Shown here: piece by piece, positions 2,425 through 52,528 of the stretch | Layout of the letters: every line of letters begins with the position of its first letter | Numbering within the stretch: the stretch's first letter is position 1 | Virus record (IMG/VR): IMGVR_UViG_3300027819_000006 | Length of the DNA stretch: 64,000 nucleotides | Strand: one strand, 5' to 3' | Origin: a virus | Taxonomy: Duplodnaviria > Caudoviricetes | Notes under the pieces: model-generated | Database searches by the model: none | What the model was told of the DNA's origin: nothing | The model's input: only the letters and a program-made list of their open reading frames with translations | Made by a program: the position numbers and the translations under genes

Positions 2425-2862
2425 CTATCTCAAAACAATTTCTCTGATCTTTTGCTTAACTTCTTCTCTATTAAGATTTATATCATGCTCCCAAAATCTT
2501 AGCAATTGAAACCCTCTCTTTCTAGCTAACCAATTTTTGACAACATCATTTCTTTTATTCTTCAATTGCATATAATTCTTATTTTCATTCATCTCATCAG
2601 AACCATGCCAATAATCTCCATCAACTTCTATAAGGATGTTTTTGCTCAGAATTCTAAAGTCATATACTTTCCAGCTATTGATGAAATTTATTGGATACTC
2701 AATTTCAAATTCTATTCCAAGCTCTGTTAAAATGCAAGACATCTCTTCTTCTGGAGCAGTTCTTTTTCTATTCTTTCTTTGTGGTTCTCTAAAAGTAACT
2801 CTGCCTTCTTTTCTCTTGTTTTTCAGAAATTTTACAAATGTCTTCTTAAAGCCTCTCTTCAA
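2425..2862 (-). CDS. DUF559/Vsr-like endonuclease
   Basis: EEEMSCIL...YDFRIL..NILIEVDGDYWHG...GFQLLRFWEHDI. Confidence 0.75.
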   Translation of the reverse strand: MKRGFKKTFVKFLKNKRKEGRVTFREPQRKNRKRTAPEEEMSCILTELGIEFEIEYPINFINSWKVYDFRILSKNILIEVDGDYWHGSDEMNENKNYMQLKNKRNDVVKNWLARKRGFQLLRFWEHDINLNREEVKQKIREIVLR

Positions 2863-3912: not shown

Positions 3913-4648
3913 TTTCTAGAGTAATAAAAAAATCTTTTTCTAAATTTAAATTAGAAGCATGACAAATTCCAGAGCCATTAACAATAGCTAAACGTCTAGC
4001 CTTTACATCAGAAATCCATTTAGGATTTGCAGTTTCTGCTCTTTTAATAGCTATTATAGTAAGTTTTTGAACTTCATCAGTTATATTCTGTTTTACAAAA
4101 GTTTGCAATATATCTAATTTCATTGTATCAGAAATTCCACCTTGCTGTGTTCTCAAATCGAAGAACATCGCTGCCGCTCTTTGAGACTTAACCTGGTATA
4201 TTGGCATCATAGCCAAAGCTTTATCAAATACATTTTTAGCAACTTTCAACTGAATTTGTTGCATTTCATTAGTCTGACCTAATTTATAGAATCTATCTTT
4301 CCATTCTGGTAATATTTTATTATTTGTTTGTATTGCAGCTGACCAAGCTACTTGTGATTGTATATCTGTTTTATTCAACATCTCTTTAAAAGTAGCCGAA
4401 CCATTGCCAAAAATATTATCTACTATAGCACTATGACTCTGAATCATTTCTTTTAAAAGTGGTTGTAATGATCCTTGTCCTAAACAAAATTGTAAACATC
4501 CAAATGAAAAACCTTGTCCGTCAAAATTTCCACTCATGCCACTATAACTTTCAAGTGGCATTTTACCTGTCTCTATAAAACTTGTAAGAGCTACACACTT
4601 CTCTAATAATGTAGAGTCTTTATTTAATCTATTCATATAATTCTCCAA
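3902..4648 (-). CDS. Putative endolysin (lysozyme/chitosanase-like fold); likely start 4636
   Basis: FIETG...SGNFDGQGFSFGCLQFCLGQGSLQPLL resembles phage/Firmicute peptidoglycan hydrolases; adjacent to SLT. Confidence 0.6.
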   Translation of the reverse strand: MENYMNRLNKDSTLLEKCVALTSFIETGKMPLESYSGMSGNFDGQGFSFGCLQFCLGQGSLQPLLKEMIQSHSAIVDNIFGNGSATFKEMLNKTDIQSQVAWSAAIQTNNKILPEWKDRFYKLGQTNEMQQIQLKVAKNVFDKALAMMPIYQVKSQRAAAMFFDLRTQQGGISDTMKLDILQTFVKQNITDEVQKLTIIAIKRAETANPKWISDVKARRLAIVNGSGICHASNLNLEKDFFITLENAV

Positions 4649-5477
4649 AGTTTATTAACATCACTTTCCCATATTCTAACTAATTTATAACCATATTTTT
4701 TAGCTAATTCATTTTTTAATTGATCTATTTCTATTTTTATTTTCTGAAATTCGTTTACTGGTCCATTTGGATAATATTCAGGATTACAATGATGATAATT
4801 GCCGTCTACTTCTACTAGTATATTAAAATCTTGTAAATAAAAATCATAATATCTGTTTTCGATCTTGAATTGATTTTCATACCTAATATTACTTTCTATA
4901 TTTTTTCTACTGATTCTTCTACTTTTGAAGTTCTTCTATGCCAATCTTTAGCTACTTTTTCTTTCCACATTTTTTCAGCTATTTCTATACCAAAACTTTT
5001 AGCCCAAAAATCTTTGACTGTTTTGCCATACATCACATTCTTTGAACCTTTTTTATCATCTGACATTTTTAGCAATCTATCATCTGTATTCTTATTTAAC
5101 CCGTCATTCCAGTTTTTACCACCATTTTCATAAAATAAAATCATGCCTGCAGAAGTTTTATTTCCATGTATTTTTACTCTCTCATCTGTTTCTTTTGTAA
5201 GACCTTTATTCCAAGCACCCGATTTGACAAAACCAATTTTTAAAATGCTATTACGACATCCATAACATCTATTATTAGGTCCTTTCACTTCTTTATTACA
5301 GTCATTTTCTATACATTTATATTTATCTAATTTCAGAATTTCAAACCAATATTTTTTAGAATTTACCTTATGTTTTGCTCCAACATGACCAAATAAAGCA
5401 TTATAGCTTTTGAAAACTTTCTTGCAAATAAAACATGATGGTAGTGGATTATTACTTTTATATTCACTTATATTCAA
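4633..5477 (-). pseudogene. Homing-type endonuclease (Zn finger + NUMOD3-like + DUF559), one frameshift near 4896
   Basis: AWNKGLTKETDERV repeats; other frame continues NIRYENQFKIENRYYDFYLQDFNILVEVDGNYHH...VRIWESDVNKLWRII*; stop overlaps lysin ATG. Confidence 0.75.
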
Positions 5478-5497
5478 TCTATTTCTCCTATAATAAA

Positions 5498-5614
5498 AGC
5501 CAAGCAATTGTAATCTACAATAGACTATGAATCTAGTAGTTGCTTGGCTCAAACTATTGGTTAAGTTTATTGTAGATTACAATATAAATATATTTATAAG
5601 AGAAATAAATGCAA
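5498..5614 (-). promoter_or_regulatory. Class II promoter plus interleaved inverted-repeat leader (X-Y-X'-Y')
   Basis: ttgtaatctacaata 5508-5522 / 5568-5582 and agccaagcaa 5498-5507 / 5540-5549; TTGCAT...TATATTTATATT upstream. Confidence 0.75.
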
Positions 5615-7880: not shown

Positions 7881-8048
7881 TTAAACATCAATTATGGACT
7901 CTAAATAGTAATTTGGTAACATATCTTTGTTCATTTTCAAAATATTGTTAAAACATGAATCTAAAATGTAAGTATTTGCATAATCTGTATCATTTCTTAT
8001 AGATCTACCGCAGCCTTGAAGTATCTCGACGATCGTCTTCCACTGATA
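7881..8048 (-). pseudogene. Duplicate (displaced) C-terminal 55 codons of the DinG-like helicase; predicted TnpB guide source
   Basis: YQWKTIVEILQGCGRSIRNDTDYANTYILDSCFNNILKMNKDMLPNYYLESIIDV*; 36/55 identical to helicase 9364-9531; same length (168 nt). Confidence 0.9.
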
Positions 8049-11961: not shown

Positions 11962-12252
11962 TTAATTTCCAGATGACAGCATCAAAGTTTCTACAGAACC
12001 TAAAATTCTACTAATCATTCTTTTGTGATTTTCACAAGTTCTGATTTTATGTCTTATAAGAGATAGTTCTCCTCTTTGCTTATTTTCTAATGCTTCTGAC
12101 ATTTCATTGTGCAGAACAGAAATGTTCAAAGACTCTCCATCGTACTTCTTCCTTAATTGTAGCAGAATTTGCTCATAAGTAATATTATCTTCAGTATGAT
12201 TCATATGTAGTAGTGTCTTATAAAAGCTGTGCATTAGTGATATCTGAGCCAT
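11962..12252 (-). CDS. hypothetical protein
   Basis: 96-aa ORF. Confidence 0.4.
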   Translation of the reverse strand: MAQISLMHSFYKTLLHMNHTEDNITYEQILLQLRKKYDGESLNISVLHNEMSEALENKQRGELSLIRHKIRTCENHKRMISRILGSVETLMLSSGN

Positions 12253-13333
12253 CTTTTGTCTCAGAAAATATGATCTTGTTCAATCCAGTCTCTACTTTTG
12301 TGATTCTTTCTAAATTCTCTAAAAATCTCTGTGGTGTTCTGTAAGTCTTCAATTCTCTGTTAAATACAAATCTATACGGATTCAGTTCTATTTCTCTTGG
12401 TATCTGCCTTAGCACATCCATTTTATTGAATATTACATGAGTGCCTCCAATAGATTTAACAGCATGAATAATCTTGTCTAGATTCATTACACCAATTTTT
12501 CTTGGTCTACCAGTAGTTTCACCAACTTCTTGACCGATGTCTCTGATTAGAGATTCCATTCCTTTTTTAAAGATATATTCAAATGGTTGTTCTTTGAAGC
12601 CAGAATAAGTAGAATATACTTTACAAACTGCATATACATTTCTCAATAAGCTAACTGGCATGTTAAAAGTAGTAAAAAAATGTCCGGGATGCAAATGTGA
12701 GCTAGTGCAATATGGATAGGAGTCAGAATCTATAGAAATTTGCATCCCTTGACTCCCTTCTAGCAAACAGTTACCAGAAAACTTAGTACATTTATTGTGG
12801 TAGAAATCATCTTGTTCCATGTATACATCTTTTATTGTAAATCTGTCATTATACTGTTCTGATTTACCTGATTCAAATTCTTGATCTTTTATATCTTTTA
12901 ATCTAATTCCTGTTCTATTATATTTGTCGACATAGCATGGACCAATGCCTTGTCTAGTAGTTCCTATTTTTATATCTTTTCCATCATCCTCCAAATTCTT
13001 ATCAGTTATAATATGACACTTTGAAGATATAAACATTCTATCTTTTAGATCAAATATATTATAAAATTTATCATATTCATCAAAAAATTTCTTCAAATTT
13101 ATACAGCAGCCGGGTCCAATGATCACGTTTGTGCTCTTATTATATATTCCCGAAGATAGAAGATGGGTTACATATTTCTGCCCATCTGCATATACAGAAT
13201 GTCCAGCATTGCTCCCACCTGAATATCGGATACAATTTTTATAGTTTTCTGTATCGATGAGTCTTTTAGAAATCTTTCCCTTCGATTCGTCGCCTTTGTC
13301 TATTCCTATAACTGCATCTACAAATTTTATCAT
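12218..13333 (-). CDS. purA: Adenylosuccinate synthetase
   Basis: GDESKGK, GGSNAGH, IGTTRQGIGPCY, EGSQG, GETTGRPR, NKMD. Confidence 0.9.
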   Translation of the reverse strand: MIKFVDAVIGIDKGDESKGKISKRLIDTENYKNCIRYSGGSNAGHSVYADGQKYVTHLLSSGIYNKSTNVIIGPGCCINLKKFFDEYDKFYNIFDLKDRMFISSKCHIITDKNLEDDGKDIKIGTTRQGIGPCYVDKYNRTGIRLKDIKDQEFESGKSEQYNDRFTIKDVYMEQDDFYHNKCTKFSGNCLLEGSQGMQISIDSDSYPYCTSSHLHPGHFFTTFNMPVSLLRNVYAVCKVYSTYSGFKEQPFEYIFKKGMESLIRDIGQEVGETTGRPRKIGVMNLDKIIHAVKSIGGTHVIFNKMDVLRQIPREIELNPYRFVFNRELKTYRTPQRFLENLERITKVETGLNKIIFSETKDGSDITNAQLL

Positions 13334-14320
13334 AAAATCTTCAATTCTTTTAATTTATTTTTATCCCATAGTTCGATTGGAATTTTGATACACTCCTGTA
13401 ATAGTGCAGGATATTTTTCACTACCATCAAACCATCCTTTAACCTCTATTATTTTTAATATTTCCTTCTATATCATAAACTATAAAATCTGGTAAATAAC
13501 TTCTATCTCTTATTATACATATTCTAAATTGTTCATATTTCCAAATAATGTTATTATTGTCGAAATATTTAGCGACTTTTGCTTCCCAAGTAGATTTAAA
13601 ACATATACCATTATAATATATTTTCTTTCCATGAGCTCTTGGTTTGCCAAATCTGGGATTTTTAATCCCTTTGGCCACTCCCTTTGATTTTCTTGTATTG
13701 GAAACACTATTTGCTAATTTTATCAGCCTAACATCTGTTTCTTTAGTTAGCCCTTTTTGCCAAGATGTCCAGCCATTAGCTACTAATTCTTTTTTTCTAT
13801 CAGACATTCTTTTTTTAGTTTCTTCAGAATGATTTCTACCATAAAAAGAAGCATTCTCGCCTGTACAGGAACCTGTCAATATTTTAGTCATGCATCCTTT
13901 TTCATGCCATTCTCTAAATTTTTCATCTGTATCTTTAGTCTTTCCTTTTTGCCAATTCACTATATTTCCTAAAGCATACCCCTCTTTTATAACTTTCGAC
14001 ATATTGCTTCTATATTCTTCAGAAAATATTCGATGAGAATTTCTACAACCATAACACATATTGCACTCTGCTTTAACTTCATTAAGACATCCTTGAACAG
14101 CGCAATAATATGTTAAAGAAGCTACACATTCAGAGCATCTATCTCCTCTATATCCAGTTACTTTGCTTAATATATCTCCACAAGTAGTGCATCTTTTTCT
14201 GTTTTTATTATATTCTGCTGCTTCACATTCTTTGCAAAATTTACTTTTTCTTCTACCATCATAAATATTGTTGCATATATCAAAATTTGAACATTTCGTT
14301 ACTCTCATCTTCTTCTCCAA
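13330..14320 (-). pseudogene. Homing-type endonuclease (Cys-rich + NUMOD3 + PD-(D/E)xK), frameshift near 13450
   Basis: SFYGRNHSEETKKRMS, KSTWEAKVAKY...YLPDF; other frame continues IIEVKGWFDG...LKIL*, whose stop overlaps the purA ATG. Confidence 0.75.
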
Positions 14321-14461: not shown

Positions 14462-14508
14462 CTTTGCCTCATCGCCTGCCTCCCCTCATAGACGCAATCT
14501 ACATACAT
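14462..14508 (-). pseudogene. Probable displaced N-terminal stub of purA
   Basis: ATG 4 nt after upstream stop; with one restored base reads MYVDCVYGGEAGDEAK vs intact FVDAVIGIDKGDESK. Confidence 0.6.
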
Positions 14509-20619: not shown

Positions 20620-21423
20620 CTATTTTAGAAATTTATCATGAGTAGTTAAATTAAGTCCTCTTTTTACTAGTGAATCTAAAACTTTATTTGTATTATCCTC
20701 AAATCCAGGAATAATAGAACAACAATCTTTCACTAGATGTATTTTTTGAATATTCTCTTCTCCAAAATTGGCACAAATGTCGATCAAACTATACAATACG
20801 CAATGTGATAAAGCTTCGCCATAGAACCCAATTACATCGGCTCTCTGTAAAGTCTCAATTAATCTAACATTTAATTGAGTTGAGGGATCGTTTGAGTCAG
20901 GGACATCTGCAACCAACACACCAAAATGTTCCGTCGTGTAGTTGCTCCCCTTGGTAACGTAATCTACCATAGCAACTCCTTTTTCCCATTCAAGAAGCTG
21001 TTCTGCTACTGGAGAGATAACTGTAGCTCCGACGGACCCTATGAGGCAATGCGGTGGCCAAATACAAAGTTTATATCTGCCATTCTTTGCCAATGTCTCA
21101 GTATATGTTAGCATCTTTTGTGTTTCAGCAGGATTTGAAGGTTTCCATACTCCATTTTTTACATCTTCATAAGAAATAATAGTAAATGGATTCGGATGAT
21201 TTCCTTTTGAGTCTACCCAGAAAATAGGATGTGCTACGTCGTAGAAATGATGAGTATCTAGCGTTACATGGTAGTCATCTACTCTGTCTCGAATTCTTTC
21301 CATCATTTTAACCATTCTCAAAACATCTTGATCAGCACCAGGAACAAATAGCTCTCCACTTGGTGAACAAAATGATACCTGTGTGTCGATCATTAAACAT
21401 TCTATTTTCATATTAGTCTCCAT
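20620..21423 (-). CDS. Nicotinamidase / isochorismatase-family hydrolase; likely start 21411
   Basis: MIDTQVSFC, TLDTHH, WPPHCLIGS, KGSN..TEHFG, GEALSHCV. Confidence 0.85.
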   Translation of the reverse strand: METNMKIECLMIDTQVSFCSPSGELFVPGADQDVLRMVKMMERIRDRVDDYHVTLDTHHFYDVAHPIFWVDSKGNHPNPFTIISYEDVKNGVWKPSNPAETQKMLTYTETLAKNGRYKLCIWPPHCLIGSVGATVISPVAEQLLEWEKGVAMVDYVTKGSNYTTEHFGVLVADVPDSNDPSTQLNVRLIETLQRADVIGFYGEALSHCVLYSLIDICANFGEENIQKIHLVKDCCSIIPGFEDNTNKVLDSLVKRGLNLTTHDKFLK

Positions 21424-22337
21424 ATTAATTTAACTTCATCTTCCCAGACTCTAACTATTCTATCTATAACCATTGTTTTTAGCAACATTATTTTTATTAT
21501 GATCACTGGCAATTCTCTCTTTCCAGTTAAATGGTTTTTATATCCCTCTCTACAATGCCAATAATTTCCATCTACTTCTATAAGTATATTATAATCAATT
21601 AATAAAAAATCATAAACACTATACCTATTAGTGATTTCATCTAATATAAAGAATTGTTTTTTAAAATTTATGTTACACTCTATAAGCAGCTGCTCCATTT
21701 CTAATTCACATTTAGTAGTTTGATATTTTCGATTGCATAAAGATTTAGCAGCAGATAAAGATCTTTTAGCTTTTTCTTCTTCACCCATTACTCTACCTTT
21801 AGTTGTAATACCTCCATCTTGATAAAATTTTTTCAAACCCTCTGATATTTTATTTTTTGTTTCATCAGAACTAATTCTTTCAAAATTCCAGTGTAATTCA
21901 CCAGTTAACCCTTTATTAAATTGTGTTTCAGATATCTTATTGTTTCTTTCTATCCACATCTGCTCAGCTATTTCTATTCCATGTTTTAGAATCCAAATAT
22001 CTAAAACAGATTTTTCAAAAGTTCCATTTCTAGATCCAGAACTTGCACACTTTCTACATCTTACTCCTGCACTCTTTACTTGATTTTCACAATTTTCTTC
22101 TATACAATAATATATACGATGTTTAGGACATTTAAATTCTCCTTTTAAAATTGATTTTTGATATACTCTAGAAGTGCAGTTTTCTTCTGAACAATACGTG
22201 CTATTTACTGCTGAATGATATCCACAAGTGTTTTGGCCTTTTTCAACAGCACGTACACTAGCTTCATTATTGCATTTATCAACGACACATTTCACTTTTC
22301 TTCTCCATAAATAAATATGCCAAGCTGTGTACTCCAA
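21408..22337 (-). CDS. Homing-type endonuclease (Cys-rich + NUMOD3-like + DUF559); likely GTG start near 22295
   Basis: TKCELEM...VYDFLL..ILIEVDGNYWH...VRVWEDE. Confidence 0.75.
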   Translation of the reverse strand: MEYTAWHIYLWRRKVKCVVDKCNNEASVRAVEKGQNTCGYHSAVNSTYCSEENCTSRVYQKSILKGEFKCPKHRIYYCIEENCENQVKSAGVRCRKCASSGSRNGTFEKSVLDIWILKHGIEIAEQMWIERNNKISETQFNKGLTGELHWNFERISSDETKNKISEGLKKFYQDGGITTKGRVMGEEEKAKRSLSAAKSLCNRKYQTTKCELEMEQLLIECNINFKKQFFILDEITNRYSVYDFLLIDYNILIEVDGNYWHCREGYKNHLTGKRELPVIIIKIMLLKTMVIDRIVRVWEDEVKLIWRLI

Positions 22338-22518: not shown

Positions 22519-23763
22519 TTACAAAACCCTCTTAAGATTAGAGTTTGGTCTTGGACCTCTACCAACTTTATGGACTTCTGTCATAGTATCAATTGTATCT
22601 CCTACAGCTACAACATCCGCGCCGGCCATTCTCATATGCTCATCCCATGAACATTCTCCGCAGCCAATCCCGTCAAATAGCTTCCAGTCTTCTCCCCAGA
22701 ATTCCTGGCACAATTTCTCATATTCTAAAAATGCTTTTACTTTTTCTATATTGCCAAAACCTGAAGATAGCAAAATCTTTACATGTGGGAATCCACTGAA
22801 ATTTAGAGTATTTCTCAATCTATGAACTCCAATTGCTGCAACTCCTTTGCATAGATAGAATTTATTGTAGTCATTCACATCATCAAATGGCAAGAATCCA
22901 TTATCATACAAAATACCTTGCATGAAATTTTCACCACAAGTATCTACTCTTACATAGTCTAAATTGCTTCCTACTTTATCTAAACATTTAGCAGTATCCA
23001 GTGAGTCTGAATATTCATGATTGTTATAATCTATTAGAGCAATTCTTGGTACAGATTTATCAATGTGCTTATCAAATGCTAGAGTTGAATTTACTACAGC
23101 ATTTTCCATTCCATATTTCCAAGCATAAATATTTTCTAGTGCATGTGGAATAGTTCCTACTCCCAACTTATTTTCATCTGCTGCACCAATATCTGTAGAA
23201 CAATCATCTGCTCCACCATCAAATGCAGCCTTTGCAATTTCAGCATCCAATTCCCAGCCCCAATGTCTAGCACCCATGTAGATGAGTTTTCTATCTTTGC
23301 CAATAAGCTCTCTAATTTCTGAGAATGTCTGAAAAGTATTATCTAATATATGTTTTTCTACATATTTCTTATGCTCATCATAATGAGCTTGCTGAATATC
23401 ACTATTTATAGCATGCAGATAATTGCATGAAGCATGTAGAGTAGTTTCTCTTGAAATTACTCCAAGGTACATTGTTTCCAACTCAATAATATCTTGAATT
23501 TTAGCTTCAATGATCATGCAAGTTTCTTTTGGAGCATAATTATCTCCTTCAGATAAAGAATATATTCTTGCATCTGTCAGCTTTGAATATTTTTGTAGAA
23601 TTTCAAGAGCTTCATTTAAGCCATGTATCTGGTTATTGTTAGATTTTCTCACAAATACTTGCATTCTGACAAATGGATTGAGATTATCAGCTTTTAGAAT
23701 CTCATTTGATCTGAGAAAATATTTGTCTGTATATGGACGATGATCAATTTGCAAATTGAACAT
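22519..23763 (-). CDS. Nicotinate phosphoribosyltransferase-like (PncB/NadC fold)
   Basis: YTDKYF, ELETMYLG, MGARH, GTIPHAL, ALIDY, VRVDT, SSGFG. Confidence 0.8.
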   Translation of the reverse strand: MFNLQIDHRPYTDKYFLRSNEILKADNLNPFVRMQVFVRKSNNNQIHGLNEALEILQKYSKLTDARIYSLSEGDNYAPKETCMIIEAKIQDIIELETMYLGVISRETTLHASCNYLHAINSDIQQAHYDEHKKYVEKHILDNTFQTFSEIRELIGKDRKLIYMGARHWGWELDAEIAKAAFDGGADDCSTDIGAADENKLGVGTIPHALENIYAWKYGMENAVVNSTLAFDKHIDKSVPRIALIDYNNHEYSDSLDTAKCLDKVGSNLDYVRVDTCGENFMQGILYDNGFLPFDDVNDYNKFYLCKGVAAIGVHRLRNTLNFSGFPHVKILLSSGFGNIEKVKAFLEYEKLCQEFWGEDWKLFDGIGCGECSWDEHMRMAGADVVAVGDTIDTMTEVHKVGRGPRPNSNLKRVL

Positions 23764-25316: not shown

Positions 25317-26438
25317 TTATTTTGAAACTTTAATAGCAATAACTCTATCATCCCATATACCCCCTCTAACTTCTTCTATAGTTTTAGAGTTCAAGTATGA
25401 TAAGCAGCTTCGAAGCCCATTGCTGAACCTATGAACTACATCTACAACAGATTCTCCAGTATATGGAACTAATGTTTCTTTACCTTCGACAAATAGATTC
25501 TCTTTATTGCCATCCCATAGATCATATTCTTCAACTACTTCTTTTGAAGCCATACCTCTAAATTTTTTGAATTTACCAGTAATATGTTCCCCTGGTGGTA
25601 ATCTATTATAATCAGCCTGAGCTTCTATTCGCGTTCTTCCACTTAAATATTGAATTTTATCAAATATTTCTCCTGGTGTTTCTTTACATCCTGCAAATAT
25701 TCCACCACAAATTACAGCATCAGCACCAGCAACAATTGCTTTTGTCAAATCTCCAGGTTCTCTGATTCCGCCATCTAAAAGTATAGATGGACGACCGGGG
25801 TTCTGTCTAATATCATCTTGAGCCAATTGCCAGTTTCTAACAGCTTTCCAAGCATAATGTAGAGCAGTTACTGGAGGGCATCCGATTCCCGTAGTAGAAG
25901 AAGTAAGACAAGCGCTGCCCGTGCCCACAGAATGTCTAACCGAATCTGCACCTATAGATATAGCTCTTGATACAGATTCTTTTGTTAAAGTATTTCCAAT
26001 TGTTACATCTGTATGTGGATAATTTTCTTTAAACCAAATTGTGAAATCTCTAACCTTGTCCATTAATCCATTAGCACAATCTAAAACAAATAGATTAGGT
26101 GTGCAAACTGACCATAGAGCAGATATTCTCTTTTCATAATCTTTCAGCCCAATTGCTACATAGCATTTACCAGACTGTTTCTTTATTTGCTCTGCTTTAT
26201 CTACTTGCTCTTCTATAGGCATGAATCTGTGTAAAATACCTGCAGCTCCCATACTATTCATTGCCACACAAGACTCTACACTAGAAACTGTATCCATTGG
26301 AGACAGAATTAATGGATAGTCTATTTCTATATTTCTAGAAAGTTTTGTTTTCAGAGATACTTCTTTTCTAGAATTTATAGAAGAGAAGCGAGGTAGAATC
26401 TGGATATCTGAGAATCTCAGTCCTTCATATATGCTCAT
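25317..26438 (-). CDS. guaB: IMP dehydrogenase / GMP reductase (no CBS domain)
   Basis: SPMDTV, LDCANG, VGTGSACLT (catalytic Cys), LDGGIR, FRGMAS, EG. Confidence 0.85.
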   Translation of the reverse strand: MSIYEGLRFSDIQILPRFSSINSRKEVSLKTKLSRNIEIDYPLILSPMDTVSSVESCVAMNSMGAAGILHRFMPIEEQVDKAEQIKKQSGKCYVAIGLKDYEKRISALWSVCTPNLFVLDCANGLMDKVRDFTIWFKENYPHTDVTIGNTLTKESVSRAISIGADSVRHSVGTGSACLTSSTTGIGCPPVTALHYAWKAVRNWQLAQDDIRQNPGRPSILLDGGIREPGDLTKAIVAGADAVICGGIFAGCKETPGEIFDKIQYLSGRTRIEAQADYNRLPPGEHITGKFKKFRGMASKEVVEEYDLWDGNKENLFVEGKETLVPYTGESVVDVVHRFSNGLRSCLSYLNSKTIEEVRGGIWDDRVIAIKVSK

Positions 26439-26460: not shown

Positions 26461-26790
26461 TTAAAAAAAGTGTTTCACTAACATGAAAAATGAAGTGAAT
26501 ATAGATATTAATATGATAGATGCTAAAAGAAATACTATACCCCACTTAAACAGAAACAGAAATATTCTGAACAAGATAGGAATCCAAAACATTAAATGCA
26601 AAGTAATTATAGACCAAAAAGCTATACATATCGCTTGCCACTCTAAACTTCGAACAGCTTCTATTCCATGAGCAGGAACTTTAAAGACATATTCAAGAAT
26701 ACCCTCTGCAATCAGAAAAAATATAATGAATATAAAAATCTGTACTATTACTGAAACTATAGTCAGGAATTCTAAAATTTTTCTTATCAT
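26461..26790 (-). CDS. membrane protein
   Basis: Three hydrophobic segments. Confidence 0.5.
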   Translation of the reverse strand: MIRKILEFLTIVSVIVQIFIFIIFFLIAEGILEYVFKVPAHGIEAVRSLEWQAICIAFWSIITLHLMFWIPILFRIFLFLFKWGIVFLLASIILISIFTSFFMLVKHFF

Positions 26791-26832
26791 ATCAGTAACC
26801 CTTTGTTATAGATTGTTTAGTTCTTATAGTTA

Positions 26833-26861
26833 AATATAAACAATCTATGTTCAAATGTAAA
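26833..26861 (-). promoter_or_regulatory. sigma70-type promoter (class I)
   Basis: TTTACA-N17-TATATT, spacer ATAGATTGTT. Confidence 0.75.
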
Positions 26862-27028
26862 TAAAAATTTTAGTCTGTATCATGTATTACGTACACTCCT
26901 AAAACCCAAGCAACTATGGATAAGAAAAGCCAACTATCAGAATGTTGAACATACAGAATCAATTTGCACAATACTGGCCATCCTAACATCCATAGAACTA
27001 GAGCAATCTTTTTCATTTTATCTCCGTT

Positions 27029-34339: not shown

Positions 34340-35227
34340 TTATGCAAGAGCTAATTGTTTCATGAATATGTCGAATTCAACTTCTACAAATAACTCGTTA
34401 TGTTTGCCCATGTCTTTTATAATATAAACTTTATAGCCAGCTCTTTCTATTTCTTTTATTTTTATCTTTTCTCTACTCTGTACTTGTTCGACTGAATGTT
34501 TATCTGCTACTTTCTTATAATGCCAAATACCATTCCATAAAATTGCAGTTTTAATATCTTCTATTATTACATCTGCATCCCAACCATTAAAAATAGCTTC
34601 ATTATGCAGTACGTTTTTAAATTTTCTGCAACACAGTTCATAAAAATATATTTCATTCTTGCTTCTTCTTCTTAATCTCTGAGAATTAGCAGATTTTTTA
34701 CCAGCTTCTCTTGCTTTAGCTAAATATTCAGCAGAAGATCTTGTACATGTTTCACAGCAATATTTTTTATTTGAATCTATTCTTTTCAAAAACATTTTTT
34801 GACAATTGATGCTATTACATGTTACTTCTATTCTTTCTATTTTATGAATATTTACTATTCTGCCGCTTACATAACCTGATTTAATAGTATTTGATACTTT
34901 TTTTCGAGTTTCTTCACTGTGTGTTCGCGCATGCGAACATTTATCAGAACAGCATTTATGAGATAGAGCATTATCTCTAATTCTTATTTGAGTTTCGAAC
35001 CATTTGTTACATCTATCACATTTGTGAAAAACTTCAACCCATAAAATCTTTTTAGCTTTCGACTTTATACTTTTAGATAATTTCTGTAATGATTCTTCTG
35101 AAAACTTTCTTCCATAAAAGGGATTATTAGACCCTTTTAAATTTATTCCAGTGTTGCAGAATCTTTTGTGAGATGTTACTGCTCTTTTAGATTTAAAATA
35201 TCTATCGCATGTATCACATTTTATCAT
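34340..35227 (-). CDS. Homing-type endonuclease (Zn finger, NUMOD3, Vsr/DUF559-like)
   Basis: NPFYGRKFSEE, HSEETRKKVS, RSKNEIYF...WDADV...LWNGIWH. Confidence 0.75.
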   Translation of the reverse strand: MIKCDTCDRYFKSKRAVTSHKRFCNTGINLKGSNNPFYGRKFSEESLQKLSKSIKSKAKKILWVEVFHKCDRCNKWFETQIRIRDNALSHKCCSDKCSHARTHSEETRKKVSNTIKSGYVSGRIVNIHKIERIEVTCNSINCQKMFLKRIDSNKKYCCETCTRSSAEYLAKAREAGKKSANSQRLRRRSKNEIYFYELCCRKFKNVLHNEAIFNGWDADVIIEDIKTAILWNGIWHYKKVADKHSVEQVQSREKIKIKEIERAGYKVYIIKDMGKHNELFVEVEFDIFMKQLALA

Positions 35228-35332
35228 TGAACTATCTCCTCAGTGTTTATACTATAATAAATATAAACATCAAAGAGAAAAGTTCAACTACATATTACCC
35301 CAATCAATACTGTTTATTGAAGCAATATTTCT

Positions 35333-35357
35333 ACCGTCCTGGATCGGTCTGCAGGCT
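35333..35357 (-). pseudogene. 5' fragment of a split tRNA
   Basis: AGCCTGC acceptor strand plus D-arm ACCG/CGGT. Confidence 0.5.
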
Positions 35358-35366
35358 ATTTAAAAT

Positions 35367-35834
35367 TTACTTCTTCACAAGATTTGGATCAACAATTTCC
35401 GGATTGATAATTGTAACCTTGATGTCATCCATTTCGTACTTGTACTTTCCATAAGTATTTTCAAGATATGGTCTGATTGCATCTGGTGTGAAGCAGAAAA
35501 CTGATCCATCAATATCGACCAGAACTGGCATCTTCCTTCTACTAACTTTCAATCCGATAATCTTTGCATTCTTGCTATCATAAGTGAATGGCTTATTAAT
35601 CCATTCAGGATTGAGTTGATACCACTGAGCTTCTTCAATATAGTCTCTATAGAACTGCGTAATCACAACTCCATCTTCTGCAACTGCTGAACATTCAAGC
35701 TTCATACTGAAAGATGAATCATTAAACTTGATACAGCCCTGACTGAACTTGACATTATACTTTGTTTCAACAACTTTAAGAGCATTTTCAATTTCTCTAC
35801 GGATATTCTTGAGGTTGCTCTTATCAAAAACCAT
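35367..35834 (-). CDS. hypothetical protein
   Basis: 155-aa ORF with GGAG RBS. Confidence 0.55.
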   Translation of the reverse strand: MVFDKSNLKNIRREIENALKVVETKYNVKFSQGCIKFNDSSFSMKLECSAVAEDGVVITQFYRDYIEEAQWYQLNPEWINKPFTYDSKNAKIIGLKVSRRKMPVLVDIDGSVFCFTPDAIRPYLENTYGKYKYEMDDIKVTIINPEIVDPNLVKK

Positions 35835-35886
35835 TTTGATTTAATCTCCGTTTGAGAAGTTGTTGTATAACCATTTTGTACGGTTA

Positions 35887-35911
35887 AATATAAACTGAAT
35901 GCAAATGTAAA
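35887..35911 (-). promoter_or_regulatory. degenerate class I promoter (13-nt spacer)
   Basis: TTTACA...TATATT with ACAAAATGGTT downstream, as in other copies. Confidence 0.45.
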
Positions 35912-35917
35912 CAATTT

Positions 35918-36376
35918 TTATTCAATTGTCAAATTATTATCTAACCATTCTTCACACTGCTCTTGAGACTTTATATTACCAAGATTGTTCCTAAAATAGA
36001 ATAGTTTCACGTTCAAAATATTTTTAAATGCTTTAATTTTCAATTTAGATATAGTGACGTGTCTTCCTCTTCTAGAGCCCTTTATTTCTATCCATAGATT
36101 ACAATCTGGTATGAAAAAATCAGGAACATATTGCATCCCATCATCTGAAGTTCCATTGCTGATAGTGAATTTTTCAGCATTTTTAATCCAATAGATGTTT
36201 CTACTATTCAGTATATCTGCAAAAGCTAATTCATACAACCCATTCATTTCAAACTGTTCACCTTTTATATTTGCAAATTGTCTATTCTTTGTAAGCTCTT
36301 TTTGAGATTCATGGTTCAAATCAATCATGATATCTCCATTAATTGGTAACCATTTTATATGATTAAATATAAACAA
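35918..36376 (-). CDS. PD-(D/E)xK nuclease-like protein
   Basis: YELAFA...YVPDFFIPDCNLWIEIKG. Confidence 0.6.
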   Translation of the reverse strand: MFIFNHIKWLPINGDIMIDLNHESQKELTKNRQFANIKGEQFEMNGLYELAFADILNSRNIYWIKNAEKFTISNGTSDDGMQYVPDFFIPDCNLWIEIKGSRRGRHVTISKLKIKAFKNILNVKLFYFRNNLGNIKSQEQCEEWLDNNLTIE

Positions 36377-36394
36377 TTTAACCTAAAAGTAAAC
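36366..36394 (-). promoter_or_regulatory. sigma70-type promoter (class I)
   Basis: TTTACT-N17-TATATT. Confidence 0.65.
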
Positions 36395-36410
36395 AACTGT
36401 TTTATTTTGT

Positions 36411-36485
36411 AGCATCTACTCAGATTTAAACTGAGACCCTTTGCTTGGAAGGCAAACATGCTAAATCGTTAAACACTATAGATAC
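36411..36485 (-). tRNA. tRNA-Gly(TCC), CCA not encoded
   Basis: TTTGC-CTTCCAA-GCAAA. Confidence 0.8.
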
Positions 36486-36503
36486 TTATTTTTATATATA
36501 GAG

Positions 36504-36586
36504 TGCCAGAGGAGAGATTTGAACTCTCAGTAGGATTTCTCCAGATTGCTTCTAAAGCAATTTCGTATGCATTCCGACACTCTGGC
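36504..36586 (-). tRNA. tRNA-Leu(TAG), CCA not encoded
   Basis: ATTGC-TTTAGAA-GCAAT, long variable arm. Confidence 0.8.
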
Positions 36587-36836
36587 TCTTTTGTAATCTT
36601 TCTATTCTATCAAGTTCTTTTTGCATTTTTAAAATTTCTAATTCTGTATATATTAACAAAATTCTTAAAGAATCTAATTTTGTATTTGCAAATAAAAATG
36701 GGTTATTAAGATTTTTCATTATTGTTTTTACTAAAGCAGTATCTACAGGAACTGTTGCAGATTTTGTAGATACTGCAAACAATAAAATACAAGCTAAAAT
36801 TAATGCCATAACTTTCATTTTATCTCATTTTAAAAT

Positions 36837-36919
36837 TGGTAGCCCTACTCAGATTTGAACTGAGACGGCATAAATGCCACTGCTTTTGAAGCAGTTGAGT
36901 AGACATTCCTCTATAGGGC
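36837..36919 (-). tRNA. tRNA-Leu(CAA)
   Basis: ACTGC-TTCAAAA-GCAGT, CCA. Confidence 0.85.
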
Positions 36920-36945
36920 TATTGTTATTCTTCATCATTTATTAG

Positions 36946-37029
36946 TAGCTCTGGAGGGATTTCAACCCTCACTCCATTTAAGGAACATATTCTTGAAATA
37001 TGCGAGTCTAGCAATTTCTCCACAGAGCT
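36946..37029 (-). tRNA. tRNA-Leu(CAA), second copy, CCA not encoded
   Basis: CATAT-TTCAAGA-ATATG. Confidence 0.8.
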
Positions 37030-37036
37030 ATATTTT

Positions 37037-37110
37037 TGGTGGACTGAGATGGAATCGCACATCTACCACTAGTTTTTCAAGCTAGCACTCTTCTCCTGAG
37101 TTATCAGTCC
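37037..37110 (-). tRNA. tRNA-Phe(GAA)
   Basis: Loop TTGAAAA; acceptor GGACTGA/TCAGTCC; CCA. Confidence 0.8.
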
Positions 37111-37118
37111 CTATTTAT

Positions 37119-37146
37119 TGGTGCACTTGATAGGATTCGAACATAT
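37119..37146 (-). pseudogene. 3' fragment of a split tRNA
   Basis: GTTCGAATCCTAT-CAAGTGC-A-CCA; complementary 5' GCACTTG at 37872-37878. Confidence 0.7.
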
Positions 37147-37159
37147 ATGAGATTTTTAT

Positions 37160-37237
37160 TGGTGGGTCTGGCAGGAATTGCACCCGCATTTTTCTCCTTA
37201 AAAGGGAGCTACAAAAGCTAATTTTTGTTACAGACCC
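37160..37237 (-). tRNA. tRNA-Lys(TTT) with a 6-bp D-stem
   Basis: Loop CTTTTAA; ACAAAA/TTTTGT D-stem; 5' end overlaps the last codons of the upstream nuclease ORF. Confidence 0.75.
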
Positions 37238-37821
37238 ATTAAAATCTTTAATTCATTTATGCATTTTAAAACATTTTCTTTAACATCTTGAGCTTCAAAT
37301 CTTATAACTTTCCAACCATTTTCTATACTAAATTTATCTCTTCTTTCATCTATTAATTTAACTTTTGGTAAATTATGTGTAGACCCATCAATTTCAACAT
37401 CAATTTTTAAATCTATAAAAGCAAAATCATAACAATATATACTATGCTGATAATTGTATATCCATCCTTCAATGTTTGAATATTCTAAAGCATTTTTGAA
37501 TATTTTTTCTGGATAACTCATTTTAGAGCAATGATTTAGTTTGTATGGAACTTTTTCTGGATGTTCCATTAAATATTTTATTCGATGTAAAGATAATTTG
37601 TTTCTAGTTTCTTCAGTGTGATGTCTGCCTGTCCAATATATTCTTGCTGATTCTGATCTTTTCTTCCTCAATATTTCACTTTTATCATTATCAAGACAAA
37701 ACATTACATGAGAAGTCATTTTTTGTGGTATATCAAAACAAAATTCTTTTTTACAATGTTTGCATACATATATTTTCATTATGATCCTCCAATTATATAA
37801 TAAATATAACTGTCGAATCAT
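37228..37821 (-). CDS. Homing-type endonuclease (NUMOD3 + DUF559)
   Basis: WTGRHHTEETRNKLS, SYPEKIF...YDFAF..IDVEIDGSTH...GWKVIRF. Confidence 0.8.
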   Translation of the reverse strand: MIRQLYLLYNWRIIMKIYVCKHCKKEFCFDIPQKMTSHVMFCLDNDKSEILRKKRSESARIYWTGRHHTEETRNKLSLHRIKYLMEHPEKVPYKLNHCSKMSYPEKIFKNALEYSNIEGWIYNYQHSIYCYDFAFIDLKIDVEIDGSTHNLPKVKLIDERRDKFSIENGWKVIRFEAQDVKENVLKCINELKILMGL

Positions 37822-51910: not shown

Positions 51911-52528
51911 CTATACAAATTTTAAAAAATAGTTCCAATCTTCTCTATTTTTCAGATCAACAACCTTTTGAAATTTATTGATCCATTGTGGTTTAGATGG
52001 CTTTTTTAACAGCTTAAAACCAACTTCTTCTAAACTTTTGTTGCCTTTGTATTCATTGCAGTTTTTACAACATGCAACACAATTAGAAAAACTGCTACTT
52101 CCACCAGAAGCTTTCGGAATTATATGATCAATTGTTAGCATATCTATATTATATTTTTTATAACAGAATTGACAAGTATAAGAATCTCTCTGCAGTATAG
52201 ATGCTCGACTATACTTGACAAAATAACTTGGTAATTCATCTGTTCTATGAACTATAACAGAAGGAGCTAAATGTTTATATTTTGGAGAATGAACTATATG
52301 ATATTTATCTTCTGGCAATCTATCTGATATTCTCACTAATTCGTCATAATCAATAGCTGAAAGTTTTGATCCTACTAAATTGTTAAACTTGTCATATACA
52401 TCTTCTGTAAGAACCATTTTAGCATAATTCTTATATATTAGTCCGAAAGCTGTTCTTACATCTGTAATGTTCAGAGCAATCCAGCTCCTGTTAATACAGA
52501 GAGTTTCCCTATTCAATAAAGAACTCAT
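51911..52528 (-). CDS. HNH endonuclease (McrA-like family)
   Basis: ILQRDSYTCQFC...TIDHIIP..GG...NCVACCKNCNEYKG. Confidence 0.9.
   Translation of the reverse strand: MSSLLNRETLCINRSWIALNITDVRTAFGLIYKNYAKMVLTEDVYDKFNNLVGSKLSAIDYDELVRISDRLPEDKYHIVHSPKYKHLAPSVIVHRTDELPSYFVKYSRASILQRDSYTCQFCYKKYNIDMLTIDHIIPKASGGSSSFSNCVACCKNCNEYKGNKSLEEVGFKLLKKPSKPQWINKFQKVVDLKNREDWNYFLKFV

What the first reader, a model, noticed from the sequence alone, without database searches (positions are those of the whole stretch)
20926..21065. GC-rich synonymous codons cluster at catalytic motifs in an otherwise very AT-rich genome
Seen: nicotinamidase WPPHC (CCG CAT TGC CTC ATA GGG TCC GTC) and KGSN..TEH (GGG AGC AAC TAC ACG ACG). 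Also GuaB catalytic loop near 25890-25945 (TCG, GGC ACG GGC AGC), NTase near 7285-7320 (CGT CAC CGC TTC), radical SAM GGE near 57575-57612 (CGC AGC...TCG...CCC), ThyA LPPCH, Rnl2 motif I and ligase KxDG. Third positions are G/C, so amino-acid composition does not fully explain it. The stubs next to the nucleases show the same bias. Inference: fossil record of synonymous recoding to escape homing nucleases or RNA-guided targeting at sites where the protein cannot change.
Basis: partly seen in the sequence, partly recalled or inferred. Interest (0 to 1): 0.62.

Follow-up and report, generated by a model that had tools for sequence, protein, structure and literature searches.

The report
GC-codon islands beside phage homing nucleases
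In an AT-rich giant groundwater phage, short runs of rare G/C-ending codons are real, but they are not a general feature of catalytic motifs: they lie in conserved gene segments next to selfish DNA-cutting-enzyme genes and probably mark where those enzymes act.

Summary
The quoted codons exist on the minus strand. The flagged stretch is the middle of a nicotinamidase-family gene (20620-21423). Its TKGSN..TEH motif is the strongest amino-acid-matched GC3 island in the 64 kb (z about 7; never reached in 300 synonymous shuffles).

The general claim holds only in part:
- Over nine enzymes, strictly conserved residues carry no significant GC3 excess (74 observed, 66 expected).
- Several named motifs (ThyA, ligase, NTase) are not individually significant, and other catalytic motifs show nothing.
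- At the level of 10-codon windows, islands do fall in conserved segments (P=0.0003; 0.006 without the flagged gene).

The islands are lineage-specific. They are absent at the same positions in the only syntenic relative and in other AT-rich homologues.

They are about 2.5-fold concentrated within 500 nt of 11 free-standing homing-endonuclease (HEG) cassettes: 13 of 33 islands against 15% of codons, permutation P below 0.005. There is no enrichment near the three TnpB genes. Three relic gene stubs beside nucleases are also GC3-rich.

The best reading is that these are footprints of HEG traffic, either target-site immunity alleles or junction scars. This is inferred, not shown. Earlier notes of this scan report similar islands in other phage genomes; I did not check them.

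The parts
20620..21423 (-). Nicotinamidase-family (isochorismatase-like) gene, 267 aa (263 aa from the second ATG). It holds the flagged stretch.
   Evidence: More than 2,000 homologues, some named nicotinamidase/pyrazinamidase and carrying PF00857. D13, K158 and C208, and D56/H58/H125, are invariant. A weak PDB match to yeast nicotinamidase 2h0r, E=5.6e-4. No Pfam hit at E<=0.001.
20926..20961 (-). Island B: Y-V-T-K-G-S-N-Y-T-T-E-H, written TAC GTT ACC AAG GGG AGC AAC TAC ACG ACG GAA CAT. It holds the invariant TKGSN..EH motif with the catalytic Lys158.
   Evidence: z=7.1-7.2, the top window of 64 kb. No shuffle reaches it. L083 scores z=2.0 at the same codons. Other AT-rich homologues score 0.17-0.25 GC3 there.
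21031..21060 (-). Island A: W-P-P-H-C-L-I-G-S-V, written TGG CCA CCG CAT TGC CTC ATA GGG TCC GTC.
   Evidence: z=3.7-4.0, P=0.002. L083 scores z=-0.6.
20890..20925 (-). Third island (codons 169-178), plus a run F167-G168-V169-L170-V171 that replaces the family's near-invariant Y-S-A-V-Q.
   Evidence: z=3.5. Y167 and S168 are 100% conserved in 80 plus 43 homologues, and only this phage deviates. Identity to L083 drops from 0.80 to 0.50-0.60 after about codon 160.
21408..22337 (-). Free-standing Vsr/EDxHD-like homing endonuclease gene, between the NAMPT-like gene and the nicotinamidase gene. Its stop overlaps the nic start.
   Evidence: PHROG 'homing endonuclease' 4.7e-7 and 'HNH endonuclease' 2.5e-6. 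Distant Vsr/DUF559 relatives. Paralogues at 2425-2862, 4636-4899 and 18582-18860. Absent from the syntenic relative L083.
22519..23763 (-). NAMPT/QRPTase-like gene on the other side of that HEG, with islands at 22618-22647 and 22660-22689 near its 3' end.
   Evidence: PF02749. Islands z=3.4 and 3.6, 295-337 nt from the HEG. L083 scores z=-0.9 and -0.7.
13333..14320 (-). NUMOD3-type HEG cassette directly upstream of purA (the nuclease domain continues in another frame down to 13333).
   Evidence: PF07460. PHROG endonuclease hits. Paralogy extends to 13333. Absent in L083.
12218..13333 (-). Adenylosuccinate synthetase (PurA), with islands on the P-loop (13274-13303, GGC GAC GAA TCG AAG GGA AAG) and at 13109-13138.
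   Evidence: PF00709. z=3.9-4.0 and 4.5-4.8. L083 scores z=-0.8 and -1.5. Mosaic identity to L083: 0.47 in codons 1-40 against 0.85-0.93 in codons 241-360.
14462..14508 (-). Relic purA start (M-Y-V-D-C-V-Y-E-G, one-base slip, A-G-D-E-A-K), stranded upstream of the cassette and cut off inside the P-loop.
Evidence: GC3 7 of 14 against 2.5 expected.
57867..58855 (-). Split (frameshifted) HEG, a paralogue of the NUMOD3 cassette, directly upstream of the radical SAM gene.
   Evidence: Paralogy to 13439-14320 and 61325-61828. Double zinc ribbon hit.
56665..57870 (-). Radical SAM/SPASM gene, with islands on CxxxCxxC (57715-57744) and before GGE (57589-57618).
   Evidence: PF04055 and PF13186. z=3.9 and 3.3, 138 and 264 nt from the HEG.
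4636..5552 (-). HNH/zinc-finger HEG cassette upstream of gene 3902-4648. A relic of that gene's first ~50 codons lies at 5626-5766, and there is an island at 4151-4180.
   Evidence: PHROG HNH 2e-7. Stub is 62% identical over 47 aa. Stub GC3 16 against 9.0 expected; working copy 6 against 9.3.
7884..8048 (-). Relic copy of the helicase C-terminus (55 aa), beyond TnpB 8053-9237.
   Evidence: 65% identical, E=6e-20. Equidistant from the working copy and from L083. GC3 15 against 9.6 expected; working copy 8 against 9.6.
25881..25943 (-). GuaB/IMPDH catalytic-Cys loop island (TCG .. GTG GGC ACG GGC AGC). The nearest mobile gene is TnpB 24059-25312, not a HEG.
   Evidence: PF00478. z=4.0-4.4. L083 scores z=0.7.
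34340..37821 (-). HEG cluster (34340-35227 NUMOD3; 35918-36376 nuclease stub; 37228-37821 DUF559), interleaved with tRNA genes and the GC3-richest gene of the window (35367-35834, three islands).
51911..52528 (-). HNH endonuclease gene. An island at the start of gene 51164-51427 lies 499 nt downstream of it.
   Evidence: PF14279 and PF01844. Island z=4.1.
2425..2862 (-). Short Vsr-like HEG paralogue with no island nearby. Further HEG-like ORFs without nearby islands are at 17861-19034 and 61325-62002.
   Evidence: Their flanks have GC3 at or below expectation.

Best explanation
The flagged stretch is the centre of a nicotinamidase-family gene of a 272-kb, 30% GC groundwater jumbo phage. Its two most conserved motifs are spelled with rare G/C-ending codons.

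Such islands are not a property of catalytic motifs as such. They are lineage-specific. They sit in conserved segments of genes that lie next to free-standing homing-endonuclease (HEG) cassettes. Here the cassette is a Vsr/EDxHD-like HEG inserted just upstream of the gene and absent from the only known relative.

The most likely reading is that the islands are DNA-level footprints of homing. HEGs recognise conserved coding sequence close to their insertion point. The allele that travels with a cassette, or survives beside it, must differ from the cleavable sequence. Where the protein cannot change, the differences are synonymous. In a genome whose norm is A/T-ending codons, any such change reads as G/C.

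Shown: the islands and their statistics; their absence in relatives; their proximity to HEGs; cassette-plus-stub layouts; mosaic identity around cassettes.

Inferred: that the islands are recognition or cleavage regions; that they block cutting; and the order of events.
For: 1. The nic island is the strongest in 64 kb (z about 7) and no synonymous shuffle reaches it.

2. The islands are lineage-specific. At the aligned codons the syntenic relative L083, which lacks these cassettes, scores z between -1.5 and +2.0. Four-fold sites between the two phages are near saturation. AT-rich homologues from other genomes have background GC3 at both nic motifs.

3. The islands are near HEGs. With 11 HEG-like cassettes defined by PHROG/Pfam hits and all-against-all paralogy, 13 of 33 islands (z>=3) lie within 500 nt, against 15% of codons (P<0.001). 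For z>=3.5 it is 9 of 21 (P=0.002). This is robust to window sizes of 8-12 codons, cut-offs of 300-800 nt, gene-normalised expectation, and removal of any one gene.

4. The islands lie in conserved segments: percentile 0.75 against 0.49, P=0.0003. Of the 55 z>=3 windows in nine enzymes, 46 are in the four HEG-adjacent genes.

5. Conserved residues show GC3 excess only in HEG-adjacent genes (44 observed against 33.2 expected), not in the others (30 against 32.8).

6. The purA relic upstream of the NUMOD3 cassette stops inside the P-loop, and the working copy's P-loop is an island. This places a cassette junction on a catalytic motif.

7. Immediately 3' of nic island B, five near-invariant residues are replaced in this phage only, and identity to L083 drops there. 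That is a local burst of change.

8. A documented analogue exists. In yeast WHO elements, the neighbouring FBA1 allele resists its own nuclease through nucleotide differences, some of them synonymous, and stubs are left behind (bioRxiv 10.64898/2026.08.13.744650). HEGs also sit at recombination boundaries in phages (PMC10448857).
Against: - No cleavage site is known for any of these nucleases.
- Mean GC3 over whole 750-nt HEG flanks is not raised once all 11 cassettes are used (z about 1.1-1.3). Only short islands are enriched.
- Four HEG-like ORFs (2425, 4636, 17861, 61325) have flanks at or below expectation.
- After dropping the three strongest genes the proximity signal falls to P=0.07-0.19.
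- In two of three stub pairs the relic is GC3-rich and the working, supposedly immune, copy is ordinary.
- No nic relic was found upstream of its HEG.
- About 60% of islands, including GuaB, Rnl2, ligase, PARP-like and phosphoesterase, are more than 500 nt from any HEG.
- Island thresholds and distance cut-offs were chosen during the analysis.
- Only one relative lineage exists for comparison.
Confidence: 0.45

Rival explanations
1. Reverse causality. The islands arise for some other reason, and HEGs settle beside them. In a 30% GC genome, G/C-containing conserved stretches are the only long, unique, information-rich sequences a DNA-binding nuclease can recognise, so islands attract cassettes rather than result from them.
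For: All three relic stubs, which are the remains of alleles that were invaded, are GC3-rich. This fits 'the cut allele was GC-rich'. Some HEG DNA-binding domains are said to favour GC-rich sequence (discussion in PMC10448857). Many islands lie far from any HEG.
Against: It leaves the origin of the islands unexplained. The cassette-free relative has no islands at the same positions, so the islands do not pre-exist in the one uninvaded lineage that can be seen. A resident island recognised by the resident HEG would be cut.
Confidence: 0.17
2. Repair bias. HEG-induced breaks make their neighbourhood a recombination hot spot between diverged co-infecting phages. Heteroduplex forms best in conserved segments, and GC-biased mismatch correction, or error-prone repair, raises GC at silent sites there.
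For: It explains three things at once: the direction of change (towards G/C), the location in conserved segments and near HEGs, and the fact that both relics and working copies can be GC3-rich. Mosaic identity to L083 around cassettes shows that recombination does occur there.
Against: The HEG ORFs themselves are GC3-poor (ratio 0.79), and whole flanks are not enriched. Unchecked notes of this scan report A/T-rich patches at homing sites in high-GC phages. If true, that fits 'away from the norm' rather than 'towards GC'. GC-biased conversion has not been shown in phages, to my knowledge.
Confidence: 0.15
3. Chance, reader selection and heterogeneity. The reader's eye was drawn to G/P/C/H/W-rich motifs. 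A few true outliers, together with context effects such as AAG runs and NNC before A, give an over-dispersed background, and my HEG association is partly a product of choices made after seeing the data.
For: Four of the nine named motifs have P=0.1-0.2, and unpicked motifs show nothing. The per-residue test is null. There are strong context effects and lag-1 autocorrelation. A first, biased HEG list inflated the effect (against 53). The signal weakens without the three top genes.
Against: The nic island is beyond all shuffles. The window-level conservation link gives P=0.0003. HEG proximity gives P<0.005 under many settings, with a rigid-shift null that keeps island clustering intact. Stub GC3 is 38 observed against 21 expected.
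Confidence: 0.12
4. Translation-level selection. The islands are rare-codon clusters that slow ribosomes at critical folds, or accuracy-optimal codons placed at residues that must not be mistranslated.
For: The islands lie in conserved segments. Many island codons are NNC forms of two-fold families (TAC, AAC, TTC, AGC), which are read by Watson-Crick pairing.
Against: The islands are not conserved in position in L083 or in other AT-rich homologues. Conserved residues of RecA, GuaB, ThyA, NadE and EF-Ts show no excess (30 observed against 32.8 expected). There is no enrichment for NNC at conserved F/Y/N/D/H sites. Untranslated relic stubs carry the same bias. The islands include ACG, CCG, TCG and GGG, which are not optimal in any known system.
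Confidence: 0.08

Closest known systems
Intronless homing by free-standing phage endonucleases (T4 SegF/SegG, MobE; Liu et al. 2003 J Mol Biol 334:13, cited in PMC10448857)
   Same: A nuclease gene sits between conserved genes, present in one phage and absent in its relative. Cleavage is expected within a few hundred bases, inside a neighbouring conserved gene. The carrier genome is protected by sequence differences at the site, and flanking markers are co-converted.
   Different: Here no cleavage site or resistance has been measured. The new point is a codon-usage signature: rare G/C-ending islands, readable from one genome, across many cassettes. To my knowledge this has not been described for the T4 enzymes.
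WHO elements beside yeast FBA1 (Coughlan et al. 2020 eLife; bioRxiv 10.64898/2026.08.13.744650)
   Same: A nuclease sits beside a conserved enzyme gene. Homing replaces part of that gene with a resistant version and leaves the old part as a stub. Resistance comes from a few nucleotide differences, a third of synonymous changes suffice, and there is positive selection in the recognition site.
   Different: WHO elements are eukaryotic, use LAGLIDADG enzymes and replace 3' ends. Here the nucleases are Vsr-like, NUMOD3 and HNH in a phage, with 5' as well as 3' replacements. For the nic gene no stub was found.
HEGs at boundaries of genetic exchange in ICP1 and other phages (Barth, Dunham, Seed 2023, PMC10448857)
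   Same: HEGs mark the edges of recombination tracts between related phages. The mosaic identity of purA, nic and the helicase end to L083 fits this.
   Different: That work maps recombination boundaries by identity between genomes. It does not report a synonymous-codon bias at the targets (no occurrence of 'synonymous' in its text).
Rare-codon clusters (Clarke and Clark 2008) and accuracy-driven codon choice at conserved residues (Akashi 1994); both recalled from memory
   Same: Rare codons are non-randomly clustered, and there is some association with conserved regions.
   Different: Those effects are expected to be conserved in position among homologues and to hold genome-wide. Here they are lineage-specific, absent from enzymes away from HEGs, and present in untranslated stubs.

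Membership tests
Nicotinamidase / isochorismatase-like hydrolases (PF00857; PncA, Pnc1) | Asp-Lys-Cys catalytic triad. | tested here: met
   D13, K158 and C208 are invariant in 44 close and 80 genomic homologues. Mapping them to the PncA triad rests on my memory of the PncA sequence.
Nicotinamidase / isochorismatase-like hydrolases (PF00857; PncA, Pnc1) | Metal-binding Asp/His residues, including the W-P-x-H-C motif. | tested here: met
   D56, H58 and H125 (in WPPHC) are invariant. The WPxHC segment aligns to yeast Pnc1 2h0r.
Nicotinamidase / isochorismatase-like hydrolases (PF00857; PncA, Pnc1) | Reaches the Pfam family model. | tested here: not met
   No Pfam hit at E<=0.001 for this protein. 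Some homologues carry precomputed PF00857 hits. The PDB match has E=5.6e-4 over residues 10-144 only. It is best called a distant, separate subfamily.
Free-standing homing endonuclease with intronless homing | Nuclease domain of a HEG family. | tested here: met
   ORF 21408-22337: PHROG 'homing endonuclease' 4.7e-7, HNH 2.5e-6, and distant Vsr/DUF559 relatives. Other cassettes: NUMOD3, HNH, DUF559.
Free-standing homing endonuclease with intronless homing | Presence/absence polymorphism at the same locus between related genomes. | tested here: met
   L083 has NAMPT-like then nic, and the 101-aa ORF then purA, with no nuclease gene between them.
Free-standing homing endonuclease with intronless homing | Cleaves the cassette-free allele near the insertion point, while its own allele is resistant. 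| not testable with these tools
   This needs enzyme assays. Only the sequence differences are seen.
Nuclease cassette that carries a replacement gene part and strands the old part (WHO-like, fungal mORF-like) | A relic of the neighbour gene on the far side of the nuclease. | tested here: met
   Met for helicase/TnpB, for gene 3902-4648/HEG and for purA/HEG. Not met for nic, rSAM and two other loci, where scores fell within the shuffled range.
Accuracy-driven codon bias at conserved residues | Conserved residues across genes use the favoured class more than variable ones, amino acid by amino acid. | tested here: not met
   Mantel-Haenszel OR 1.26, P=0.18 in six genes. 74 observed against 66 expected in nine genes, and 30 against 32.8 in genes away from HEGs.
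Position-conserved rare-codon clusters | The same cluster positions appear in homologues of similar base composition. | tested here: not met
   Window-level correlation with L083 is r=0.09, and L083 scores about 0 at the islands. AT-rich homologues L010, L006, L064 and L086 are at background.
TnpB/omega-RNA guided targeting as the cause of the islands | Islands are enriched beside TnpB genes. | tested here: not met
   0, 1 and 3 of 33 islands lie within 300, 500 and 800 nt (P=0.42-0.63). The helicase stub beside TnpB 8053-9237 is, however, GC3-rich.

The most novel reading that the evidence does not exclude
The G/C spelling is functional in itself. An earlier, unchecked note of this scan (e1-5338682) says this phage probably replaces cytosine with a sugar-decorated hydroxymethyl-cytosine. 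If so, every silent A/T-to-G/C change adds one bulky modified base to the duplex. The islands would then be local shields of hypermodified cytosine, laid over the conserved sequences that nucleases (HEGs of rival phages, host restriction or CRISPR enzymes) can most reliably target. That would be a codon-level way to concentrate DNA modification where the protein sequence cannot move.
Probability: 0.07. Interest if true: 0.85.

Novelty: new variant of a known kind. Interest (0 to 1): 0.58.

Why it matters
If the islands do mark HEG recognition regions, the targets of dozens of uncharacterised homing nucleases could be read from a single genome sequence by a codon-usage scan. That would give a map of nuclease-target pairs for enzymology and genome-editing scaffolds, and a direct record of the arms race between selfish nucleases and essential genes in giant phages.

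It also warns annotators that local rare-codon runs in phage genes may reflect DNA-level conflict rather than translation.

If instead they come from repair bias, they would be the first sign of GC-biased conversion around phage double-strand-break hot spots.

The narrower lesson for this finding is that 'GC3 at catalytic motifs' is not a general rule of the genome.

Tried and rejected
- **First HEG test.** It used six nucleases that I had partly annotated because they lay near islands. It gave z=4.5, P=0.004 for mean GC3 within 750 nt. With an unbiased list the mean-GC3 effect vanished. Only the island-level test survives.
- **RNA structure.** The nic patch folds no better than shuffles (z=-0.36).
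- **Donor patch.** None of 80 genomic homologues or L083/L086 is unusually similar in DNA over the islands (at most 77%).
- **Close relatives.**
  - Nothing related in INPHARED phages except TnpB-type matches.
  - Two IMG/VR scans found nothing.
  - Best non-self nic homologue is 66% identical, best purA 72%, and the HEG itself at most 33%.
- **Population variation.** JGI contig L002 and Logan contigs of four groundwater/sediment runs are identical where they cover, and no cassette-free variant was seen. This gives no information either way.
- **Relics.** A search for relics of nic, rSAM, gene 51164-51427 and gene 35367-35834 upstream of their HEGs gave scores within the shuffled range.
- **G-then-C polarity.** This was reported for other genomes by earlier notes. 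Here the count is 8 against 3 clusters, not significant.
- **The genome search.** It found no bacterial homologues for the NAMPT-like protein, the helicase or the dCMP deaminase. No whole genome is held for the window, and L001 is not a searchable record.
- **Antisense ORF 20926-21111.** It is explained by the absence of TTA/CTA/TCA codons over 61 codons and was not pursued.
Full report
**What the window is.** The 64 kb belong to a 271,885-bp metagenome contig from groundwater (runs). It is 30% GC, and nearly all genes are on the minus strand.

It encodes phage replication and nucleotide-metabolism genes:
- RecA, a gp32-like SSB and a helicase.
- ThyA-like, GuaB, PurA and dCMP deaminase.
- DNA and RNA ligases, and EF-Ts.
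- NAD-related enzymes: a NAMPT-like protein, a nicotinamidase-like protein, NadE, a PARP-like protein and a NUDIX protein.
- 14 tRNA genes, three TnpB genes and many homing-endonuclease-like ORFs.

GC3 is 0.21, and codons such as TCC, CCG, ACG, ACC and CGC each make up 1-4% of their families.

**The flagged stretch.** Positions 20926-21065 are the middle of gene 20620-21423 (minus strand). The protein has more than 2,000 homologues, some labelled nicotinamidase/pyrazinamidase. It keeps the invariant Asp13-Lys158-Cys208 and Asp56/His58/His125. It matches yeast nicotinamidase only weakly and misses the Pfam model.

With expectations matched by amino acid:
- KGSNYTTEH carries 7 G/C-ending codons of 9 against 1.4 expected (P=3e-5).
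- WPPHCLIGSV carries 6 of 9 against 1.7 expected (P=0.002).

In a scan of all 10-codon windows, the first of these is the top island of the window (z=7.1). It lies beyond the maximum of every one of 300 within-gene synonymous shuffles.

**Is it more than chance, genome-wide?** Clustering of G/C-ending codons exceeds the shuffles: 8 windows reach z>=4.5 against 1.4 expected, and lag-1 autocorrelation is 0.045 against 0.009 +/- 0.007.

Part of this comes from context. GC3 falls to 0.46 of expectation before a codon that starts with G and rises to 1.35 before A. It is lower, not higher, in GC-rich codon neighbourhoods. A null conditioned on amino acid and next base leaves the same islands on top.

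**Catalytic motifs.**
- GuaB loop P=0.007; rSAM GGE 0.004; rSAM Cys motif 0.02.
- ThyA 0.1; Rnl2 0.2 (z=4.0 for a shifted window); ligase 0.15; NTase 0.16.
- NadE SGGxDS and helicase Walker A and DEAH show nothing.

I built conservation profiles for nine enzymes from 17-80 homologues each.

- Per residue there is no significant effect. Residues identical in at least 90% of homologues carry 74 G/C-ending codons against 66 expected. The Mantel-Haenszel odds ratio in the first six genes is 1.26, P=0.18.
- Per window there is one. Windows with z>=3 sit at conservation percentile 0.75 against 0.49 under within-gene circular shifts (P=0.0003; P=0.0055 without nic).

So islands prefer conserved segments, but most conserved residues and many catalytic motifs are spelled normally.

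**Lineage specificity.** Eighty genomic homologues of the nic gene span GC3 from 0.12 to 0.93. The AT-rich ones have background GC3 at both motifs, while this phage has 0.67 and 0.75 against 0.19 elsewhere in the gene.

The only relative found is contig L083: 12.6 kb, 59-87% protein identity over 12 syntenic genes. Its four-fold sites are near saturation against the window. At the codons aligned to the window's islands it scores z between -1.5 and +2.0.

This argues against position-conserved translational signals. It shows that the islands arose, or were imported, in this lineage.

**Nucleases.** L083 lacks several genes that the window has at the same loci:
- ORF 21408-22337, between the NAMPT-like gene and nic.
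- The NUMOD3 ORF upstream of purA.
- TnpB beside guaB.

ORF 21408-22337 hits PHROG homing-endonuclease and HNH families and distant Vsr/DUF559 proteins.

My first proximity test was biased, because I had annotated ORFs near islands first. I then scanned the remaining ORFs of 100 aa or more with PHROGs and ran an all-against-all tblastn. This gave 11 HEG-like cassettes.

With this list:
- Mean GC3 in the flanks is not raised.
- Short islands are enriched. 13 of 33 (z>=3) lie within 500 nt of a cassette, against 15% of codons. A rigid circular shift of the cassette set reaches this in none of 3,000 trials. For z>=3.5 it is 9 of 21, P=0.002.
- The result holds for 8-12-codon windows, for 300-800 nt, with gene-normalised expectations and after removing any single gene. 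It weakens to P=0.07-0.19 when nic, purA and gene 35367-35834 are all removed.
- TnpB genes show no enrichment.
- Among the nine enzymes, the four next to HEGs hold 46 of the 55 z>=3 windows. They are the only ones with a conserved-residue excess: 44 observed against 33.2 expected, versus 30 against 32.8.

**Stubs and mosaics.** Three relic fragments flank nucleases:
- The last 55 codons of the helicase, beyond TnpB 8053-9237. They are 65% identical to the working end and equidistant from it and from L083.
- The first ~50 codons of gene 3902-4648, beyond HEG 4636-5552.

All three are GC3-rich: 15 observed against 9.6 expected, 16 against 9.0, and 7 against 2.5. Because stubs are not translated, translation cannot maintain the bias.

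In the helicase and gene-3902 pairs the working copy is ordinary (8 against 9.6; 6 against 9.3). In purA the working P-loop is itself an island.

Identity to L083 is mosaic around cassettes. For purA it is 0.47 in codons 1-40 and 0.85-0.93 in codons 241-360. For nic it is 0.75-0.88 in codons 41-160, then 0.48-0.60. The nic break coincides with island B and with a run of five replacements of near-invariant residues (Y-S-A-V-Q to F-G-V-L-V) seen in no other homologue.

**Explanations.**
- Translation-level selection is poorly supported. The islands are not conserved in position, they are absent from enzymes away from HEGs, and the bias is present in stubs.
- RNA structure is not supported.
- No donor sequence was found.

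What remains is a link to HEG traffic, with three mechanisms that my data cannot separate:
- (a) Target-site alleles that differ from the cleavable sequence, synonymously where the protein is fixed. It is analogous to T4 Seg/Mob immunity and to WHO elements, where a third of synonymous changes in the recognition site give resistance.
- (b) HEGs preferring G/C-containing conserved sequence as targets.
- (c) GC-biased or error-prone repair around break hot spots.

I favour (a), for three reasons. The purA relic places a cassette junction on a catalytic motif. The cassette-free relative is spelled normally. The nic island adjoins a burst of otherwise forbidden amino-acid changes. The GC3-rich relics fit (b) or (c) at least as well.

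Earlier notes of this scan describe similar G/C islands beside endonucleases in other AT-rich phages, and A/T patches at homing sites in GC-rich phages. These are unchecked leads, not evidence. The one testable detail, a G-then-C polarity, is not seen here (8 against 3).

**Verdict.** There is one very strong island, several moderate ones, and a real preference for conserved segments. There is no general GC3 excess at conserved residues.

The association with homing endonucleases is statistically solid within this window. Escape by recoding is plausible but not shown. The RNA-guided variant is not supported.

Noticed in passing
window, all genes: Strong codon-context rule. The chance of a G/C-ending codon is 0.46 of expectation when the next codon starts with G and 1.35 when it starts with A. 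GC3 is higher in AT-rich neighbourhoods than in GC-rich ones.
   Followed up: partly
window, gene starts: Codons 2-6 carry 27% more G/C-ending codons than expected (z=3.0). Several top islands sit at the very start of genes, for example 14962-14991 and 51398-51427.
   Followed up: no
window:20911-20925 (-): The nicotinamidase-like protein replaces the family's near-invariant Y-S-A-V-Q, after the TEH motif, with F-G-V-L-V. It deviates from 23 of 118 strongly conserved positions overall, so its activity may differ from that of its relatives.
   Followed up: partly
window:25317-26438 (-) and L083:896-1858: The phage GuaB/IMPDH lacks the CBS pair of bacterial enzymes. The window's copy is 373 aa with a canonical C-terminal part, but L083's is 320 aa. 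TnpB 24059-25312 abuts the window gene's 3' end on the opposite strand.
   Followed up: no
window:22519-23763, 20620-21423, 47005-47829, 44796-46025, 50284-50721: A scattered NAD set: NAMPT-like, nicotinamidase-like, NAD synthase, a PARP-like ADP-ribosyltransferase and a NUDIX hydrolase. The more distant relative L086 adds a NADAR domain. This suggests phage control of NAD salvage and ADP-ribosylation.
   Followed up: no
window:41050-41655 (-): A phage-encoded elongation factor Ts homologue (PF00889, E=1e-25).
   Followed up: no
window:32406-34289 and 36409-37237: Thirteen tRNA genes in two blocks, interleaved with three HEG-like ORFs. Nearly all read A-ending codons, including tRNA-Ile(UAU). 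A fourteenth, tRNA-Trp, sits just downstream of the HNH gene at 51817-51890.
   Followed up: no
window:21551-21596 and 26810-26871: A ~45-nt sequence inside HEG ORF 21408-22337 recurs upstream of gene 26461-26790 and on other contigs of the same phage at the same depth. It may belong to the shared nuclease leader described in earlier notes.
   Followed up: no
window, HEG and TnpB ORFs: The nuclease genes themselves are poorer in G/C-ending codons than the rest of the genome (ratio 0.79 for HEG-like ORFs, 0.88 for TnpB).
   Followed up: no
window:17504-19146 against L083:5682-5727: A 1.6-kb insertion relative to L083 holds three ORFs. Two of them (18366-19034, 17861-18184) are pieces of a decayed HEG related to 21408-22337 and to the NUMOD3 cassette.
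   Followed up: partly
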